A program made the position numbers and the translations under genes. Shown here one piece after another: positions 20,614 to 59,579 of a stretch of 64,000 bases of DNA. Each line of letters starts with the position of its first letter. Position 1 is the first letter of the stretch. This DNA comes from an uncultured Planctomycetia bacterium (GTDB taxonomy: Bacteria > Omnitrophota > Gorgyraeia > 2-02-FULL-51-18 > JAGOUK01): positions 40,040 through 104,039 of the forward strand of contig CAYSFB010000004.1 of NCBI GenBank assembly GCA_964430735.1, in the 5' to 3' direction. Under the pieces are notes generated by a model. The model was not told the DNA's origin. It was given only the letters and a program-made list of their open reading frames with translations, and did not search any database.

Positions 20614-20993
20614 AGCGCGTCAACGGAGGATTCGGTATGAAACATTTTCTGGCGGGTGCGGCGCTGGCCGCGGCCGTGGCCGGGGCGGGTTCGGCCGTTC
20701 TGGCGCAGGACTTCGAGACCGGTCCCAATATATCCGGAGAGAGCTCGGCCTCGGACCGACGGCAGCTGCTGCAGGACGAGCGGCCCGTCCGCATGGACGA
20801 CAACATGCGGATCGAGGTCCCGCGAGGACCGAACGGGTTTCCGCAGCGGCCGGTCCGCGGATTGTCGCGCACCGAAGAGATGGAGATGGACGATCTGGAG
20901 CACCGTTTTCAGCAGGGGCAGATCGGCGAAGCGGAATACTATTCCCGGCGCAACGCCCTGATGGAACGGATCGGTCTTGAGGCCGAGTACTAA
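20610..20993 (+). CDS. Hypothetical secreted protein with a SHOCT-like C-terminus (GQIGEAEYYSRRNALMERIGL)
   Basis: ATGA overlap with the dinB stop. The signal peptide ends near AVLAQD. The SHOCT-like motif is recognised by pattern. Confidence 0.45.
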   Translation: MKRVNGGFGMKHFLAGAALAAAVAGAGSAVLAQDFETGPNISGESSASDRRQLLQDERPVRMDDNMRIEVPRGPNGFPQRPVRGLSRTEEMEMDDLEHRFQQGQIGEAEYYSRRNALMERIGLEAEY

Positions 20994-21021
20994 ACATTTT
21001 GAACCCCGGAGAATATCAAAC

Positions 21022-21645
21022 ATGAACAGGCAATTTTGGATCGGAGCGGCGGTTGCGGCGGCGGTGTTGACGGGCGGATCCGCGTGGGCGGACGGCGCTA
21101 GAATCATGGCGGTGACCGGCGATGCCTTCGTGGCGAACCAGGACGGGATTCAGCGGGCCAAAAAGGGCATGACTTGTGAAGCGGGTGACATGGTGATGAC
21201 CCGCCAGGGATGTCATCTGGATCTTTCGGTCGGCGGTCAGGCCGGTTGCCGGATGCTGCCGGGCACGACGGCTGCGATCGGCAGCGTGACGCCGGAGCGC
21301 ATCAAGCTCGTGGTGGCCGAGGGCAACGTGGTTCTCAATGTAAAAAAACTCGCTGCCGGATCCGAGTTTACGGTCGACACTCCGACGTCGGTCGCGGCCG
21401 TCCGCGGAACGCAGTTCTGGGGACGTGTGACAGGTGGCGAAAGCGCAAGTCCGGTCACGACGTTCGCGGTCCGGGAAGGGTCGGTCCAGATTTATGACAA
21501 AGCCTCCTCCAAATCCGTCACGGTGAATGCCGGGCAGGCGGTCGATATGGCCGGCGGAAAGGCCGGGGATCCCGTGGTCCGCACCGCGCTTCCGGACGAA
21601 ATGAACGCGATGGCCGTGGCGGATCAGATTGCGATCTCTGCTTAA
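21022..21645 (+). CDS. Secreted FecR-domain protein (FecR/DUF4974-like beta-sandwich, with no anti-sigma N-domain)
   Basis: Signal peptide, then ...FTVDTPTSVAAVRGTQFWGRV..., the characteristic VRGT.F FecR motif. Confidence 0.55.
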   Translation: MNRQFWIGAAVAAAVLTGGSAWADGARIMAVTGDAFVANQDGIQRAKKGMTCEAGDMVMTRQGCHLDLSVGGQAGCRMLPGTTAAIGSVTPERIKLVVAEGNVVLNVKKLAAGSEFTVDTPTSVAAVRGTQFWGRVTGGESASPVTTFAVREGSVQIYDKASSKSVTVNAGQAVDMAGGKAGDPVVRTALPDEMNAMAVADQIAISA

Positions 21646-37095: not shown

Positions 37096-37674
37096 ATGTT
37101 CATGCGAAAAAAGAACCCTCAAGCGGCCCATCCTTTCGTCGAAACGCCGCGGGAAAGAGTCCTCGAAATCGACGCGGCCACGCAAGGCGCCCTCACCTTC
37201 AAAGATCCCGTCAACATTCTGATCAGCGGACGTTTTGAGGGGACCTTGGACGCCGCCGGTTCTTTGACGGTCGGAGAAAAAGCCCAGGTCAAGGCGCGCA
37301 TCAAAAGCGGCCGGGTGCTGATCCATGGCGAAATGGTCGGCGACGTGATCGCGGCCGAATCCCTGAAGATTTGCGCAGGCGGCCGCCTGGTCGGCGACGT
37401 CCGGACGCCGGAGCTGATCGTGGAGCCCGGCGCAGTTCTCCACGGGGACGTGAGCATGATCGTTTCGCCGGACCGCTTTGCGGCGGATTCGAGACTCGTT
37501 CTGTCCGAGGATTTGTGGAGCGTCGACCAATTGGCGGCGTACCTGTCGGTGGAACGATCGATGATTTTTGAATGGGCGGACGCGGGGCGTCTCCCCGGCA
37601 TCAAGGACGAAAACGGCTGGCATTTTGACAAGCGGAAGGTGGACGAGTGGGTGACGAGCGGAAGGATCGGATGA
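37096..37674 (+). CDS. Bactofilin-domain protein fused to a C-terminal excisionase-type helix-turn-helix (HTH_17-like)
   Basis: Bactofilin beta-helix repeats: ILISGRFEGTLDAAGSLTVGEKAQVKARIKSGRVLIHGEMVGDVIAAESLKICAGGRLVGDV. The C-terminal LWSVDQLAAYLSVERSMIFEWADAGRLPGIKDENGWHFDKRKVDEWV fits the excisionase/AlpA-type HTH pattern. Confidence 0.7.
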   Translation: MFMRKKNPQAAHPFVETPRERVLEIDAATQGALTFKDPVNILISGRFEGTLDAAGSLTVGEKAQVKARIKSGRVLIHGEMVGDVIAAESLKICAGGRLVGDVRTPELIVEPGAVLHGDVSMIVSPDRFAADSRLVLSEDLWSVDQLAAYLSVERSMIFEWADAGRLPGIKDENGWHFDKRKVDEWVTSGRIG

Positions 37675-51972: not shown

Positions 51973-53517
51973 ATGAAGCCCGAGACCATCCTGATCGTCG
52001 ATTACGGTTCCCAGTACAATCTGCTCATCGCCCGTCGCATCCGCGAATTCGGCGTTTATTGCGAAATTCTTCCGCCCAATTTCAAAGCCTCCGACATTGC
52101 CGACAAGCCCATCAAGGGCATCGTGCTCTCCGGCGGTCCGGCATCCATTTATGAGAAGCATGCGCCGGCCTTGAACTCATTGGTGCTGGAGCAGGGCGTG
52201 CCGGTGCTCGGCATCTGCTATGGCATGCAGGCGCTCTGCCACTCGCTCGGCGGCAAGGTCAAGCGCGCCGCGCATCGCGAATACGGACGCGCGCCGCTCA
52301 CGGTGACGCGCTCGGCGTCCGCGTTCTTCAAAGGCGTTCCGAAAACGAGCCAGACCTGGATGAGCCATGGCGACTCGGTCGTCAAGCTTCCGGCCGGGTT
52401 CGTCCCGACAGCCAAGACGGGCAACACGCCCAATGCCGCGTGCGAAAACGCCAAGCGCCGGATCTACGGCGTGCAATTCCATCCGGAAGTCGTGCACACC
52501 GAGCAGGGCGCGAAGATGCTCAAGAACTTCGTCTTCGGCGTTTGCGGCGCGAAGGGGACGTGGACCATCCGTTCGTTCGTCCAGGACGGCATCAAGACCG
52601 CCCGCGCCATCGTCGGCAAGGACCACGTGATCTGCGGTCTGTCCGGCGGCGTCGACTCCTCGGTCGTCGCGGCGCTGTTGTCCAAGGCGGTCGGCAAGCA
52701 GCTGACCTGCATTTTCGTCGACAACGGCTTGCTCCGAAAGGGCGAGCGCGAGCAGGTGAAGCGGATTTTTGGAAATCAGTTCAAGACGGACCTGCACATT
52801 GTCGACGCGCGCAAACTTTTTTTAAAAAACCTCGCCGGCGTCACGGAGCCGGAGAAAAAGCGCAAAATCATCGGCCACACCTTCATCCGCGTGTTCGAAA
52901 AAGAAGCGCGCAAGATCAAGAACGCCAAATGGCTCGCCCAAGGGACGCTGTACCCGGACGTCATCGAAAGCCGCTCCGCGTTCGGCGGTCCGTCAGCGAC
53001 GATCAAGACGCATCACAATGTCGGCGGCCTGCCCGACGACATGCAGTTCAAGCTGATTGAGCCTCTCAAGGAATTGTTCAAGGACGAAGTGCGCAAGGTG
53101 GGACGCGAGCTGGGTCTCTCGAAAGAAATGATCGGCCGGCATCCGTTCCCGGGACCGGGTCTCGCGATCCGTATTTTGGGCGACATCACCGAACAGCGGC
53201 TGACCATCCTCAAGGAGGCCGACTCACGCTTCATCGAAGAACTGCACACGGCGGGGCTGTACGACAAGATCTGGCAGGCGTTCTGCGTCCTGCTTCCCGT
53301 GAAGTCCGTCGGTGTCATGGGTGATCAGCGCACGTACGAGAACGTACTCGCGGTCCGAGCGGTGACCAGTCTGGACGGCATGACGGCCGACTGGGCTGAG
53401 ATTCCGGCGCCGGTCCTCGCCCGCATCTCGAACCGCATCATCAACGAGGTCCGGGGCATCAACCGTGTCGTGTACGATATTTCCTCCAAACCGCCCGCAA
53501 CGATCGAGTGGGAATAA
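51973..53517 (+). CDS. guaA: GMP synthase (glutamine-hydrolysing)
   Basis: [20 protein letters not shown]...GICYGMQ...[10 protein letters not shown] (ATP-PPase P-loop). Confidence 0.9.
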
Positions 53518-53518
53518 G

Positions 53519-54223
53519 ATGAATCAACGCATACGGATCGGTCTCGCAGTGGCTGCGTTCGTTACGATCGCTGCCGGAGCCGTATCGGCGGGTCCCCTGG
53601 ATTTTTGGCGGCCGAAGGGTAAGGACGCCAAATTGACGAAGAAGGTCCAGGACTGCGGTCAGGTGATTGAGGATTTGATGAAAGGGACCGGGAAGGACAT
53701 CCCGAAGAACATGCTCAAGGACGCTCAGGCCGTCGTGATCTTCAGCGACTCTGTGCGCGCGGGGCTGCTCGTCACGGGTCAATTTGCGCAGGGCGTTGCG
53801 CTGGTCAAGCGGGGCGGGGATTGGAGCGCGCCGGCCTTTTTCCGAATGAGCGGCGTCGGGATCGGACTTCAGATTGGCGGAGACGTCAGCGACGTCGTGT
53901 TCGTCATCACGGACAAGGGCGGCATCGACCAGCTGCTCGAGCATCGGTTCACGATGGGGGCGGACGCGTCGGCCGCGGCAGGGGACAAAGGCCGCCAGAT
54001 CAAGGCGACCGCCAACACCAAGACGCATATGCTCGCCTACGGCCGGTCCAAGGGGCTATTTGCGGGCATGAGCTTCGACGGCGCGGTGATCAAGCAGGAC
54101 GCCGGCGCGAACAAAAAATATTACGGCAAAGACTATACTGCCCGCGACATTCTCCTGAACGGCAAGGCCCCCAAAACGGCCGAAGCCGCCGACCTGATCG
54201 CGATTCTCAAAAAACACAGCTAA
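53519..54223 (+). CDS. Secreted SYLF (Ysc84/DUF500) lipid-binding domain protein
   Basis: Signal peptide, then ...AQAVVIFSDSVRAGLLVTGQFAQGVALVKRGGDWSAPAFFRMSGVGIGLQIGGDV, the SYLF pattern. Confidence 0.65.
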   Translation: MNQRIRIGLAVAAFVTIAAGAVSAGPLDFWRPKGKDAKLTKKVQDCGQVIEDLMKGTGKDIPKNMLKDAQAVVIFSDSVRAGLLVTGQFAQGVALVKRGGDWSAPAFFRMSGVGIGLQIGGDVSDVVFVITDKGGIDQLLEHRFTMGADASAAAGDKGRQIKATANTKTHMLAYGRSKGLFAGMSFDGAVIKQDAGANKKYYGKDYTARDILLNGKAPKTAEAADLIAILKKHS

Positions 54224-54239
54224 TGTGACAAATGTCACA
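54224..54239. promoter_or_regulatory. Perfect CRP/FNR-superfamily palindrome TGTGA-caaatg-TCACA, 82 bp upstream of the acidic-protein gene start
   Basis: A 5+6+5 perfect inverted repeat identical to the E. coli CRP consensus half-sites. It lies in an AT-rich intergenic region directly after the stop of the SYLF gene. Confidence 0.5.
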
Positions 54240-54321
54240 CTCGTTGTGAATTTTTTACTTCGCATTTGAGCATCGGCATGAAACAATAAATGCGATTTTT
54301 TATAACAACACCGGAGGAAGC

Positions 54322-54747
54322 ATGTTGAATCATTTCTTGGCGCGACTGTTCCTGATCTTTGCATTTGTATCGCTGCCGATCCACACGCTGAGCGTGCAGT
54401 GGAGCGGTCTTTTACCCCAGGCGCAACCGGCTCTGGTCTGGGCGGATGATGAAGAGGAAGATCCGGCCTTCGACACCGAAGATGAAATTGATGCCCAGGA
54501 AGACGACGAAATCGCCGACGAAATCGACGCCGATGAGCTCGAGGAAGCCGAGGATGAGGAGATCGAGGATGTGGTCGACGATATTTTTGACGACATGAGT
54601 GAGGACGAAGAGGAGTCGGACGATGATACGGACGACGCCGAAGAGGACGAGGACGAGCCGATGGATGCCGAAGACGTCGAAGCGGCGCAGGCGGAAGGCG
54701 GACAGGCGGCGGAAGATGCGGAGGTCGACAATGCGCTTAGAAGCTAA
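54322..54747 (+). CDS. Secreted, extremely acidic protein (about 60% Asp/Glu after the signal peptide)
   Basis: MLNHFLARLFLIFAFVSLPIHTLSV... then DDEEEDPAFDTEDEIDAQEDDEIADEIDADELEEAEDEEIEDVVDD... The frame is confirmed by its overlap with the downstream gene. Confidence 0.55.
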   Translation: MLNHFLARLFLIFAFVSLPIHTLSVQWSGLLPQAQPALVWADDEEEDPAFDTEDEIDAQEDDEIADEIDADELEEAEDEEIEDVVDDIFDDMSEDEEESDDDTDDAEEDEDEPMDAEDVEAAQAEGGQAAEDAEVDNALRS

Positions 54748-56488
54748 AGTATCTTTGTTCAGCCGCGTTCTTTCGGTGCTCGTGGCGGGTATTTTGATCG
54801 GTGCTCCGTCCGCGGCTCTGGCCGACGACGGATTTGACCTGACCGATTATCGCAAAGCGCTCAAGTCCCCGGTTGGAAAGTCGGTCGCCAAGGCCGCTCC
54901 CGCTGAGGCCGTCGCTATTCTTCAGGCGGAGGTCGCCAAGGCCCCCAAAAAGACCGAGTACCAGCGCCTGTTGGCCAGCGTTTATCGCAAGTCGGGCAAG
55001 TTCGAAGAGAGCATCGTCCCGTTGCAGGCCCGCGTGAAGGCGAAGCCTGGTGACGCGGTAGCGGCCTTGTACCTGGCTGAAGCGCAGATTCGCACGTCCC
55101 GGACGGCCGACGCCCAGGCCACGCTGACCGACGTCGTGGCCGCCAACCCCAGCAGTGTGCCCGCCGACGTGGCTTCGCTCATGCTGGCGCAGCTCGCCTC
55201 CGGCAACACGGTGGAATCCCTGGATCCTCCCGCCTCCACGATCAAGCCCAAGGCGTTCATCGCCGCGCCCGCATCGAAGCTGTTTGCCGCGAAGGACTAT
55301 GTCGGCGCCGCGTCCGCGTTCGCGTCCCTGGCGGCCGAGCATCCCCGGGATGCGATGGTGCTGCGCTACTGGGGCGCTTCGCTGACGAAGGCCGGCCGGG
55401 CGGCGGACGCCGTTCCGGTGTTCGAACGCGCATCGCGCCTGGATCCGCTCGGGATCGCGCTGCACGAAGATTGGGGAACGGCGCTCAAGAAGCTCAAGAT
55501 GAAGACCGACGCCAACAAGCACTTGAAGTTCGCCAAGGACTTCGACCCGGCCGGACCCTATGCGAAGAAAGCCGAGAAGAAGGTCTCCAAGGAAAAGAAG
55601 AAAAAGAGCCCTCTGAAGCTCAAGGGCGGCTTCGGCTACACGTACGACACCAACATCAAGAAGCGGTCGAACGTCGCCGAACAGCGCAAGGCGGCCGATA
55701 TCAGCGGCGGCACCTCGGAGTACAATCTGGGCGCGACGCTCAACCTGTACGACAAGGACAAGTGGCTGATCAAGGTCGACGGCTCGCTGAAGCACACCTA
55801 CCTCAACGAAGACCGTGACGAGCGCAACAAGCACACGCATATGACGGGTATTTCGATCGGCCGCAAGACGACCCTCTTCGGCAAGCCGGTCGATATCGCG
55901 ATGCGCAACGGCGGTTCCAACAACCTCAAGCACGGCCAGTACAACAGCTGGGGCTACAAGAACACGGTCAAGCTGGCGTGGGACTGGAACGAGCATTACA
56001 AGCCGTCCATCACCAACAACATCGGCTACAACGACAAGGACGATACGGGGACGCGTCCCGAGTTCACGAATTCGGAAGGATGGAGCGAGCAGGTCGCGCT
56101 GGACCACAAGTTCATCCCGGATCCGAAGAACAAGGACTACTTCTATACCGCCGGAACGTCCTACCAGCACACCTATGCGCTGGGCCGCAACAACGTGCTG
56201 GACAAGGTGGCCGTTGACGCCGGCGTTGGACTTCCGGTCGCGCCCCTGCTGACGAACGAAACGACGGTGACGTATGCCGTTTCTCAGTACCCGGACTTCG
56301 TGAGCTTCCCGCCCCGCACGCGTCAGAAGCGCGGCGACGACTGGACGCTCAAGACGGCCTTTGTGCGCGAGATCAACAGCAACTGGGAAATCGAATTCGA
56401 TTACACGTACCTGAACTTCAACAATCGCAACGACAAGTCCCAATACGACGGGCACTTGTACACGATCATGGGGAACTTCAAGTACTAA
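54731..56488 (+). CDS. Outer-membrane protein with N-terminal TPR repeats and a C-terminal beta-barrel (PgaA/BcsC-like or YaiO-like architecture)
   Basis: Signal peptide LVAGILIGAPSAALADD. TPR-like helices up to about residue 280. An alternating amphipathic-strand region ending ...YTIMGNFKY, the aromatic C-terminus typical of OM beta-barrels. Confidence 0.65.
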   Translation: MRLEAKVSLFSRVLSVLVAGILIGAPSAALADDGFDLTDYRKALKSPVGKSVAKAAPAEAVAILQAEVAKAPKKTEYQRLLASVYRKSGKFEESIVPLQARVKAKPGDAVAALYLAEAQIRTSRTADAQATLTDVVAANPSSVPADVASLMLAQLASGNTVESLDPPASTIKPKAFIAAPASKLFAAKDYVGAASAFASLAAEHPRDAMVLRYWGASLTKAGRAADAVPVFERASRLDPLGIALHEDWGTALKKLKMKTDANKHLKFAKDFDPAGPYAKKAEKKVSKEKKKKSPLKLKGGFGYTYDTNIKKRSNVAEQRKAADISGGTSEYNLGATLNLYDKDKWLIKVDGSLKHTYLNEDRDERNKHTHMTGISIGRKTTLFGKPVDIAMRNGGSNNLKHGQYNSWGYKNTVKLAWDWNEHYKPSITNNIGYNDKDDTGTRPEFTNSEGWSEQVALDHKFIPDPKNKDYFYTAGTSYQHTYALGRNNVLDKVAVDAGVGLPVAPLLTNETTVTYAVSQYPDFVSFPPRTRQKRGDDWTLKTAFVREINSNWEIEFDYTYLNFNNRNDKSQYDGHLYTIMGNFKY

Positions 56489-56509
56489 ACAATCGGTTCG
56501 GACGCATTC

Positions 56510-56550
56510 AAAAGAGCGGGCTGATCACTTCAGCCCGCTCTTTTTCTTTT
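56510..56550. terminator. Bidirectional rho-independent terminator (AAAAGAGCGGGCTG...CAGCCCGCTCTTTT) between the convergent OMP gene and recQ
   Basis: 14-bp inverted repeat flanked by A-tract/T-tract, read directly. Confidence 0.55.
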
Positions 56551-56566
56551 GAGAAGCGGGTGGGGA

Positions 56567-59228: not shown

Positions 59229-59579
59229 ATGGGCCGACACCACCTGCATTCTCGAAGCCGGCGGACGCTGTATTCGATCGTCATCGTGGCCGCGGTGATG
59301 GGCATCGGCACGATCGGGATGCGGGAGCTGGAAGGGATGGCCTGGGTGGATGCTTTTTATTTCATGAGCATGATCGCCACGGCCCAGGGATCTGCATGGA
59401 CACCGGTGACCGCGGCAGGCAAGCTTTTTGCCTCGCTGATGGCCTTCGTTTCGGTCGGCATGGTCGTCACCACGCTGGGCTTCTTGTTCGGACCCTTCTT
59501 GGGACGCTTGTGGCATATCGGCCGGATCAAACTGCAGGAAGAGATCGACGTCATCGAAAAGCGCGACAAGCGCTCATAG
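59229..59579 (+). CDS. Small two-TM ion-channel protein (Ion_trans_2 / K+-channel-like pore module with non-canonical filter TAQGS in place of TVGYG)
   Basis: TM1, then MRELEGMAWVDAFYFMSMIATAQGSAWTP (pore-helix plus filter-like segment), then TM2. Confidence 0.5.
   Translation: MGRHHLHSRSRRTLYSIVIVAAVMGIGTIGMRELEGMAWVDAFYFMSMIATAQGSAWTPVTAAGKLFASLMAFVSVGMVVTTLGFLFGPFLGRLWHIGRIKLQEEIDVIEKRDKRS

What the first reader, a model, noticed from the sequence alone, without database searches (positions are those of the whole stretch)
54224..56488. Perfect CRP-consensus palindrome in front of a secreted poly-acidic protein and TPR/beta-barrel outer-membrane protein pair
TGTGAcaaatgTCACA matches both E. 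coli CRP half-sites perfectly with 6-bp spacing. It is the only such site I saw in the window. It lies 82 bp upstream of a two-gene unit: a signal-peptide protein that is about 60% Asp/Glu (about 100 acidic residues), overlapping by 17 nt a TPR-plus-beta-barrel OMP. A periplasmic polyanion paired with a TPR-barrel porin, under a CRP/FNR-type regulator, suggests a regulated cation-binding/export or surface-polymer module. It is not a housekeeping function.
Basis: partly seen in the sequence, partly recalled or inferred. Interest (0 to 1): 0.55.

Follow-up and report, generated by a model that had tools for sequence, protein, structure and literature searches.

The report
Chance CRP-like palindrome; novel outer-membrane gene pair
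The perfect CRP-type palindrome is real but looks like the tip of the upstream gene's terminator hairpin rather than a conserved regulatory site, while the two genes behind it are a rare, conserved pair (a secreted poly-acidic protein plus a TPR/14-strand beta-barrel outer-membrane protein) of untested function in uncultured Omnitrophota.

Summary
TGTGACAAATGTCACA is present at 54224-54239. It is the only such site in the window (0.05 expected). It is absent upstream of the same gene pair in every other lineage recovered. Relaxed versions of the motif are not enriched, and no CRP/FNR gene lies in the window. The palindrome starts one base after the stop codon of a SYLF-domain gene. It forms the tip of a 34-nt hairpin (-14.8 kcal/mol, z -4.1) flanked by A6 and T6, the same layout as the window's two clear terminators. 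I read it as a terminator-type hairpin that may overlap a weak promoter. CRP control is neither supported nor excluded.

The gene pair is real: a 141-aa signal-peptide protein (57 Asp/Glu, not about 100) overlaps by 17 nt a 585-aa protein with a signal peptide, TPR domain, polybasic linker and 14-strand barrel. The pair is conserved in seven other loci from four to five lineages. A 27%-identical relative also has an acidic partner, and more distant relatives have small lipoproteins instead. The barrel family is rare (36 of 1.84 billion representatives) and reaches no Pfam or NCBIfam threshold. The closest architecture is Slam/type XI secretion. The likeliest mechanism, inferred only, is that the TPR domain docks the partner and the barrel displays it.

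The parts
53519..54223 (+). Upstream gene: signal-peptide SYLF/Ysc84-domain protein (234 aa from the ATG at 53519; the longest ORF starts at 53465)
   Evidence: Pfam Ysc84 at 2.8e-34. The gene is called 1319-2023 in the identical-strain locus L001. NCBIfam gives a weak BPSL1445 SYLF lipoprotein hit.
54224..54239 (.). Perfect palindrome TGTGAC-AAAT-GTCACA (TGTGA-N6-TCACA), starting 1 nt after the TAA stop of the SYLF gene
   Evidence: One match against 0.05 expected. It is absent from the orthologous loci L003-L006, L015 and L016.
54209..54256 (+). Terminator-type element: A6 (54209-54214), an imperfect 34-nt hairpin at 54215-54248 (CACAGC/GUUGUG outer stem, 3x3 internal loop, the palindrome as inner stem and loop), then AA and T6 (54251-54256)
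   Evidence: RNA fold gives -14.8 kcal/mol, z -4.12, with 1 of 200 shuffles as good. The A-run/hairpin/T-run layout matches the terminators at 14638-14695 and 56510-56545.
54225..54253 (+). Possible weak promoter overlapping the palindrome: GTGACA, 17 nt, then TGtGAATTT (an extended -10-like element). Inferred only.
   Evidence: L003 has GTGACA-17-TATAAT at the matching distance from its acidic gene, and L015 has TGGACG...TAAAAT. The window hexamer is weak and fell below the scan threshold.
54260..54301 (+). Second, weak hairpin (UCGCAUUUG...AAAUGCGA) followed by T6, inside the presumed 5' leader
   Evidence: -8.3 kcal/mol, z -0.73, not significant.
54313..54318 (+). Shine-Dalgarno sequence GGAGGA of the acidic gene
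   Evidence: Read from the sequence. A strong SD is conserved in all five lineages.
54322..54747 (+). Secreted poly-acidic protein, 141 aa. It has an N-terminal signal peptide, a conserved V/L-Q/E-W segment, a ~100-aa Asp/Glu-rich tract with conserved spaced hydrophobic residues, and the invariant C-terminus AEDAEVDNALRS.
   Evidence: Composition. Alignment of 5 orthologues at 52-58% identity. Differences at the third codon position are about twice those at positions 1 and 2. No Pfam or NCBIfam family matches.
54731..56488 (+). Outer-membrane protein, 585 aa. Signal peptide is residues 1-31, TPR domain residues 38-270 (54842-55540), polybasic linker residues 271-298, 14-strand beta-barrel residues 295-585 (55613-56485), ending in GNFKY.
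   Evidence: Pfam TPR families. AF2 model has pLDDT 72, TPR about 90, barrel 45-85, 14 strands. Strands show alternating hydrophobic and polar faces. Linker net charge is +8 to +9 in all 7 homologues.
56510..56544 (.). Strong bidirectional intrinsic terminator closing the operon and the convergent recQ gene
   Evidence: 15-bp stem followed by a T-run. -27.3 kcal/mol, z -6.5.

Best explanation
There are two separate things here.

(1) The palindrome. It is the apex of a terminator-type hairpin that closes the upstream SYLF gene. It possibly also overlaps the -35 region of a weak promoter for the next operon. Its match to the CRP consensus is most likely coincidental. It is not a conserved regulatory feature of the downstream genes.

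(2) The downstream genes. They form a self-contained, translationally coupled outer-membrane module of uncultured Omnitrophota.
- Shown: both products have Sec signal peptides. The larger one is a periplasmic TPR domain joined by a polybasic linker to a 14-strand barrel. The smaller one is a strongly anionic protein, inferred to be disordered, whose charge is conserved more than its sequence.
- Inferred mechanism: the TPR domain and polybasic linker capture the acidic partner in the periplasm. The barrel then holds it or threads it to the cell surface, as Slam/type XI translocons do with the cargo encoded next to them. The result would be a polyanionic surface or periplasmic layer.
For: Palindrome:
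- It begins 1 nt after the stop codon.
- It sits inside a 34-nt hairpin of -14.8 kcal/mol, z -4.1, bracketed by A6 and T6 like the window's two clear terminators.
- It is not conserved in L003, L004, L005, L006, L015 or L016.
- Relaxed motif: 7 sites observed against 13.3 expected.
- No CRP/FNR homologue in the window or in 134 kb of related loci.

Module:
- The pair is conserved, with a 17-nt overlap or a 4-nt gap, in all lineages that have upstream DNA, while the flanking genes differ.
- The acidic ORF shows a coding pattern of substitution and a conserved signal peptide and C-terminal motif.
- A relative at 27% identity (P0009) also has an upstream secreted acidic protein ending DAQVDAGLK.
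- Four distant relatives have a small lipoprotein directly upstream.
- The AF2 model has TPR plus 14 strands, which is the architecture published for Slam (PMC5449769).
- Relatives' barrels come close to Pfam SlipAM in register: 20.2 and 21.2 bits against a cut-off of 22.
- The polybasic linker is conserved at +8/+9.
Against: Terminator reading:
- The stem is AT-rich with an internal loop, and two A residues separate it from the T-run.
- The tool's strict terminator scan did not call it on the + strand.
- In this GC-rich window many coding stretches also combine a stable fold with a T-run.
- A hairpin does not explain why the arms spell exactly TGTGA/TCACA.

Module mechanism:
- The window protein itself has no SlipAM hit at E up to 10.
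- BBP2_2 and the generic OMP_b-brl family match relatives equally weakly.
- TPR_Slam hits sit among many cross-matching TPR families.
- The acidic partner lacks the 8-strand barrel domain of known Slam cargo.
- The barrel-only model failed (pLDDT 39.5), so the strand count rests on one medium-confidence model.
- No experiment or complex prediction links the two proteins physically.
Confidence: 0.42

Rival explanations
1. The palindrome is a genuine operator for a CRP-family (or other dimeric helix-turn-helix) regulator that controls the acidic/TPR-barrel operon in this species only.
For: It matches both CRP half-sites perfectly with the correct 6-bp spacing. It is the only one in 64 kb, with 0.05 expected. 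It lies in the only intergenic space upstream of the operon. No strong sigma-70 promoter was found, which would fit dependence on an activator.
Against: The site is absent in all other lineages carrying the same operon. There is no enrichment of near-consensus sites. No CRP/FNR gene lies in the window. If the promoter is the one suggested by comparison with L003, the site is centred near -28.5. That would make it a repressor-type site, not a class I or class II activating site. The terminator context accounts for the dyad symmetry.
Confidence: 0.2
2. The palindrome has no function. It is a chance match in an AT-rich spacer, and the operon is read from another promoter or by read-through from the SYLF gene.
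For: 5 of 100 shuffles give at least one site. The site is not conserved.
Against: The dyad extends to 34 nt (13 of 17 positions paired) with z -4.1, and it is flanked symmetrically by A6 and T6. That is more structure than a chance 16-mer needs.
Confidence: 0.25
3. The TPR-barrel protein is a synthase-dependent exopolysaccharide porin of the PgaA/BcsC/PelB kind. The acidic protein would be an accessory that guides a cationic polymer, as the electronegative PelC ring does.
For: BcsC is the only solved structure matching the whole TPR-plus-barrel architecture (Foldseek E 2e-8). L003 carries an MBOAT acyltransferase nearby. Weak BBP2_2 and PEP-CTERM outer-membrane-protein hits occur in relatives.
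Against: The TM-score is only 0.27. The model has 14 strands, whereas I recall 16 for PgaA, BcsC and PelB (memory, not checked here). No glycosyltransferase or synthase lies next to the pair in any of the loci. The MBOAT block is present in one lineage only.
Confidence: 0.12
4. The acidic protein stays in the periplasm as a cation buffer or electrostatic spacer bound to the basic TPR/linker. The barrel is only a membrane anchor or small porin, and nothing is translocated.
For: The partner carries a net charge of -55, against +8 on the TPR domain and +8 on the linker. Charge is conserved while sequence drifts through Asp/Glu swaps. The lumen-facing residues are only slightly basic, 16 K/R against 12 D/E.
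Against: Translational coupling to a barrel and the conserved non-acidic N- and C-terminal motifs suggest a specific handover rather than bulk buffering. Distant relatives pair the barrel with small lipoproteins instead, which fits a cargo or accessory role better.
Confidence: 0.15

Closest known systems
Slam / type XI secretion system outer-membrane translocons (Pfam SlipAM PF04575 = DUF560, with TPR_Slam PF24575)
   Same: A periplasmic N-terminal TPR domain followed by a predicted 14-strand C-terminal barrel. The gene sits next to a small Sec-exported partner, which is a lipoprotein in distant relatives. Relatives give borderline, in-register SlipAM hits.
   Different: The window protein has no SlipAM hit. 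The family lies outside Proteobacteria (Omnitrophota). The partner here is a non-lipidated, probably disordered polyanion of 141 aa with no 8-strand TbpB-like barrel domain. A polybasic linker joins the TPR domain to the barrel.
Synthase-dependent exopolysaccharide porins BcsC / PgaA / PelB
   Same: Fusion of TPR and beta-barrel. BcsC is the only whole-architecture match among solved structures.
   Different: Much smaller (585 aa). 14 rather than 16 strands. TM-score 0.27. No synthase operon. No family hit.
E. coli-type CRP operator (TGTGA-N6-TCACA)
   Same: The core is identical, with perfect half-sites and spacing.
   Different: No known cognate regulator, no conservation, no enrichment, no activating geometry, and it overlaps a stop codon and a hairpin/T-run.
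Bidirectional intrinsic (Rho-independent) terminators
   Same: The layout is an A-tract, a hairpin and a T-tract immediately after a stop codon. The window's terminators at 14638-14695 and 56510-56545 have the same layout.
   Different: The stem is AT-rich and interrupted by a 3x3 internal loop. It is far weaker than the other two (-14.8 against -27 kcal/mol).

Membership tests
CRP-family operator | Match to TGTGA-N6-TCACA | tested here: met
   Perfect match at 54224-54239.
CRP-family operator | A CRP/FNR-family regulator encoded by the organism | not testable with these tools
   None in the 64-kb window or in 134 kb of related loci.
CRP-family operator | Site conserved upstream of orthologous operons, or motif enriched in intergenic DNA | tested here: not met
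   Absent in L003-L006, L015 and L016. Sites with up to 2 mismatches: 7 against 13.3 expected, all others inside genes.
CRP-family operator | Centre at -41.5, -61.5 or a related position relative to a mapped transcription start | tested here: inconclusive
   No transcription start is known. The candidate promoter inferred from L003 places the centre near -28.5. The candidate ATGAAA-17-TATAAC places it near -81.5 but leaves almost no leader (read directly from the sequences returned).
Intrinsic terminator | Stable hairpin directly followed by a U-run, downstream of a stop codon | tested here: met
   Hairpin at 54215-54248 with -14.8 kcal/mol, z -4.1, followed by AAUUUUUU. The stop codon is at 54221-54223. 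The strict scan did not call it because of the internal loop.
Intrinsic terminator | Transcripts actually end there | not testable with these tools
   No transcript data are available.
Slam / T11SS (DUF560) | N-terminal periplasmic TPR domain | tested here: met
   TPR_19 at 4.8e-10. AF2 helices span residues 38-270 at pLDDT about 90. 16 of 29 relatives also hit TPR_Slam, but this is not specific.
Slam / T11SS (DUF560) | C-terminal barrel scoring above the Pfam SlipAM (PF04575) gathering threshold | tested here: not met
   The window barrel has no hit at E up to 10. The two relatives scored individually reach 20.2 and 21.2 bits against a cut-off of 22. 3 of 29 relatives match at E up to 1.
Slam / T11SS (DUF560) | 14-strand barrel | tested here: inconclusive
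Slam / T11SS (DUF560) | Adjacent cargo with a lipobox and/or a C-terminal 8-strand barrel domain | tested here: not met
   The partner has no Cys and no barrel domain; it is a 141-aa polyanion. Distant relatives do have adjacent lipoproteins, but of only 75-116 aa. The criterion is taken from PMC5449769.
PgaA/BcsC/PelB exopolysaccharide porins | Family-level sequence or structure match, and a neighbouring synthase | tested here: not met
   No Pfam or NCBIfam hit above cut-off. BcsC TM-score is 0.27. No synthase lies in any locus.
YaiO barrel family | Pfam YaiO match | tested here: not met
   YaiO is not among the hits for the window barrel at E up to 10 or for the 29 relatives at E up to 1.

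The most novel reading that the evidence does not exclude
A Slam/T11SS-like translocon lineage exists outside Proteobacteria. Its cargo is not a folded lipoprotein but an intrinsically disordered, strongly polyanionic protein. The TPR domain and polybasic linker capture it, and it is threaded through a 14-strand barrel to coat the cell surface. In this species the system is additionally switched by a CRP-type regulator.
Probability: 0.1. Interest if true: 0.65.

Novelty: new variant of a known kind. Interest (0 to 1): 0.35.

Why it matters
The CRP site itself would matter little. The gene pair is more interesting. It defines a rare family of TPR-plus-barrel outer-membrane proteins, each encoded with a tiny Sec-exported partner, in poorly known phyla such as Omnitrophota. 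If the barrel proves to be a Slam-like translocon, type XI-style secretion would extend beyond Proteobacteria and to a new class of cargo, a disordered polyanion. It would also provide a simple two-gene system for testing how narrow barrels pass proteins. If instead the acidic protein is a periplasmic or surface cation sink, it bears on how ultra-small, possibly host-dependent bacteria manage envelope charge and metal supply.

Tried and rejected
- A barrel-only AlphaFold run gave pLDDT 39.5 and is unusable.
- PDB sequence searches gave only TPR matches with the full-length profile and nothing with the barrel profile at E up to 10.
- A word-indexed search with the 29-member barrel profile returned only 2 fragments. 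The acidic-protein profile returned only the two orthologues already known.
- The genome and metagenome scans with the close family gave only 2 loci each.
- Rfam found no riboswitch or leader in the spacer.
- I could not obtain bona fide Slam sequences for a profile-profile test.
- The shared TGTGACAA 8-mer between the window and L003 was considered as evidence of a conserved operator and rejected. In L003 it is the -35 of a GTGACA-17-TATAAT promoter, and the sister locus L015 has TGGACG there instead.
- The MAFFT alignment of upstream regions suggested a shared TGnTAnAAT plus CGCTCGTTG block in L004, L005 and L006. The window fits it poorly, so I did not build on it.
- MamA or magnetosome relatedness was rejected as generic TPR cross-matching.
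Full report
**Observation**

The sequence TGTGACAAATGTCACA is present at 54224-54239. It is the only TGTGA-N6-TCACA in the window. Dinucleotide-preserving shuffles give 0.05 per window, and 5 of 100 shuffles contain at least one. That is marginal once one allows for the many textbook motifs a reader could have noticed.

82 nt lie between the palindrome and the ATG at 54322. The next gene starts at 54731, overlapping the first by 17 nt.

The composition claim is overstated. The 141-aa protein has 29 Asp and 28 Glu. That is 40% overall and 57% of the ~100-residue acidic part, not about 100 acidic residues.

**Setting**

The window is 61% G+C and mostly housekeeping: purine synthesis, rpsP-trmD-rplS, rnhB, guaA, recQ and dnaE. 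The closest genome record carrying the gene pair is a Candidatus Omnitrophota MAG.

The local gene order is:
- guaA;
- a signal-peptide SYLF/Ysc84 protein (53519-54223);
- the acidic gene;
- the TPR-barrel gene;
- a strong bidirectional terminator (56510-56544; -27 kcal/mol, z -6.5);
- convergent recQ.

**Is the palindrome a CRP site?**

Four tests went against a conserved regulatory role.

1. Orthologous loci. The same acidic/TPR-barrel pair was recovered from lineages at 63-74% protein identity (L003, L004, L005, L006, L015, L016). None has the palindrome.
   - L003 keeps only TGTGACA, where it is the -35 of a clean GTGACA-17-TATAAT promoter.
   - Its sister L015 has TGGACG...TAAAAT at that place instead.
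2. Relaxed motif. Sites with up to 2 mismatches number 7 against 13.3 expected, and all the others lie inside genes.
3. Regulator. No CRP/FNR homologue is encoded in the window. None is found in 134 kb of related loci either.
4. Geometry. No candidate promoter places the site at a class I or class II activating position with a sensible leader.

**What the palindrome looks like instead**

It begins one base after the TAA of the SYLF gene. It is the inner stem of a longer imperfect dyad, CACAGC-UAA-UGUGAC-AAAU-GUCACA-CUC-GUUGUG (54215-54248). This folds at -14.8 kcal/mol, z -4.1, and only 1 of 200 shuffles folds as well.

The dyad is preceded by A6 (54209-54214) and followed by AA and T6 (54251-54256). 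The two unambiguous terminators of the window, at 14638-14695 and 56510-56545, have the same A-run/hairpin/T-run layout. In L006 and, weakly, in L004, unrelated hairpin/T-run elements follow the upstream gene.

I therefore read the element as a terminator-type hairpin for the SYLF gene. Its left arm (GTGACA) may double as the -35 of a weak promoter: GTGACA, 17 nt, then TGtGAATTT. That part is inference from the comparison with L003.

There are weaknesses:
- The stem is AT-rich and interrupted by an internal loop.
- The strict terminator scan did not call it on the + strand.
- Stable folds next to T-runs are not rare in this GC-rich DNA.
- A hairpin does not explain the exact CRP spelling.

My estimates are roughly 0.2 for a real species-specific operator, 0.25 for no function at all, and the remainder for the terminator/promoter reading.

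**The gene pair is real and conserved**

The acidic ORF has:
- a strong Shine-Dalgarno sequence in every lineage;
- a conserved N-terminal h-region with a likely signal-peptidase site before V/L-Q/E-W;
- spaced conserved hydrophobic residues within the acidic tract;
- an invariant C-terminus AEDAEVDNALRS.

Differences at the third codon position are about twice those at positions 1 and 2, and Asp/Glu swaps are frequent. This means it is a coding gene whose charge is conserved more than its sequence. It matches no Pfam or NCBIfam family.

The 585-aa protein has:
- a signal peptide;
- a confidently modelled TPR domain (residues 38-270, pLDDT about 90);
- a conserved polybasic linker, YAKKAEKKVSKEKKKKSPLKLK, with net charge +8 to +9 in all seven homologues;
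- a C-terminal barrel with 14 DSSP strands;
- alternating lipid-facing and polar faces on those strands;
- a terminal GNFKY beta-signal.

The flanking genes differ between lineages, but the pair stays together with a 17-nt overlap or a 4-nt gap.

**How wide is the family?**

A profile of the barrel found only 36 proteins among 1.84 billion cluster representatives. Most of those scanned carry N-terminal TPR repeats.

Genomic context could be read for five distant members:
- P0009 (27% identity) has an upstream secreted acidic protein (130 aa, 40 Asp/Glu, ending DAQVDAGLK) and also a 77-aa lipoprotein.
- P0012, P0013 and P0024 have a 75-116-aa lipoprotein directly upstream. Two of these lipoproteins share a C-terminal motif.
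- P0017 has a 123-aa gene overlapping it by 14 nt, but no DNA was available.

The conserved theme is therefore a TPR-barrel protein plus a small Sec-exported partner encoded immediately upstream.

**Comparison with known systems**

Slam/type XI translocons are defined by an N-terminal TPR domain and a predicted 14-strand DUF560 barrel. They are reported only from Proteobacteria. About half lie next to lipoprotein cargo genes, and that cargo shares an 8-strand barrel domain (PMC5449769; PMC8406197).

The architecture here matches. In addition:
- 16 of 29 relatives hit TPR_Slam, though among many cross-matching TPR families.
- Three relatives' barrels hit SlipAM in register just below threshold. 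The two scored individually reach 20.2 and 21.2 bits against a cut-off of 22.

Against membership:
- The window's own barrel has no SlipAM hit.
- BBP2_2 matches relatives at the same weak level.
- The partner lacks the cargo domain.

Membership is therefore not established. The resemblance is one of architecture and gene arrangement.

BcsC is the only solved structure that matches the whole architecture, with a TM-score of only 0.27. No synthase gene accompanies the pair in any locus. YaiO does not match. NCBIfam gives only sub-threshold TPR hits.

**Mechanism**

Shown:
- Sec signal peptides on both products.
- Translational coupling.
- Co-conservation of the pair.
- Strong charge complementarity: -55 on the partner, against +8 on the TPR domain and +8 on the linker.

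Inferred: the TPR/linker docks the acidic protein in the periplasm, and the barrel anchors it or threads it to the surface in the manner of Slam.

Rival readings are a polysaccharide porin with an electronegative accessory, or a purely periplasmic cation buffer tethered to an anchor barrel. The available tools could not separate them.

**Verdict**

The CRP interpretation is not supported, although the decisive whole-genome test could not be run. The lasting value of the finding is an uncharacterised, rare, two-gene outer-membrane module. I classify it as a new variant of the TPR-barrel translocon kind, of moderate interest.

Noticed in passing
window 56510-56544: A strong bidirectional intrinsic terminator (15-bp stem, -27 kcal/mol, z -6.5) is shared by the TPR-barrel gene and convergent recQ. 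A sub-threshold Rfam L20_leader hit at 56429-56552 spans this hairpin and is probably caused by it.
   Followed up: partly
window 14638-14695: A second clear A-run/hairpin/T-run bidirectional terminator (GCGCCATCCGCGG...CCGCGGGTGGCGC, -25 kcal/mol). I used it as a reference for this organism's terminator style.
   Followed up: partly
L003 3286-9509 (also L015, L016): In one lineage six extra genes sit between the SYLF gene and the acidic/TPR-barrel pair: OsmC, HAMP-HD phosphohydrolase, MBOAT acyltransferase, a 353-aa unknown, a FecR-domain protein and a 373-aa beta-barrel. L005 also has a 371-aa OMP_b-brl protein directly upstream.
   Followed up: no
L013 3903-4130; L017 3765-3992; L011 4645-4995; L009 5762-5995: Distant TPR-barrel relatives are each preceded by a 75-116-aa lipoprotein with a charged, probably helical tail. 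The L013 and L017 proteins share a C-terminal L(E/Q)RQI(T/S)(D/E)P(F/I)Q motif. This is an unnamed small-lipoprotein family.
   Followed up: partly
window 55541-55624 (residues 271-298 of the outer-membrane protein): A conserved polybasic linker, YAKKAEKKVSKEKKKKSPLKLK (net +8 to +9 in all seven homologues), lies between the TPR domain and the barrel. It is the electrostatic opposite of the -55 partner.
   Followed up: partly
L006 1315-1388: A tRNA-Gly(CCC) gene lies about 130 nt upstream of the acidic gene in this lineage. This shows that the module's upstream neighbour is not fixed.
   Followed up: yes
window 37096-37674 and 20977-21645: A bactofilin domain is fused to a C-terminal HTH_17 DNA-binding domain, an unusual pairing. 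Separately, there is a stand-alone FecR-domain protein.
   Followed up: no
P0034 (2192 aa): A giant protein matches profile positions 199-247 of the barrel family nine times. It may be a repeat derived from one beta-hairpin of this barrel.
   Followed up: no
window 59229-59579: A small conserved ORF (116 aa, two hydrophobic segments) lies between the DUF4197 gene and dnaE. A small ORF of similar size (116 and 118 aa) is called at the same position in L001 and L003. No family is assigned.
   Followed up: no
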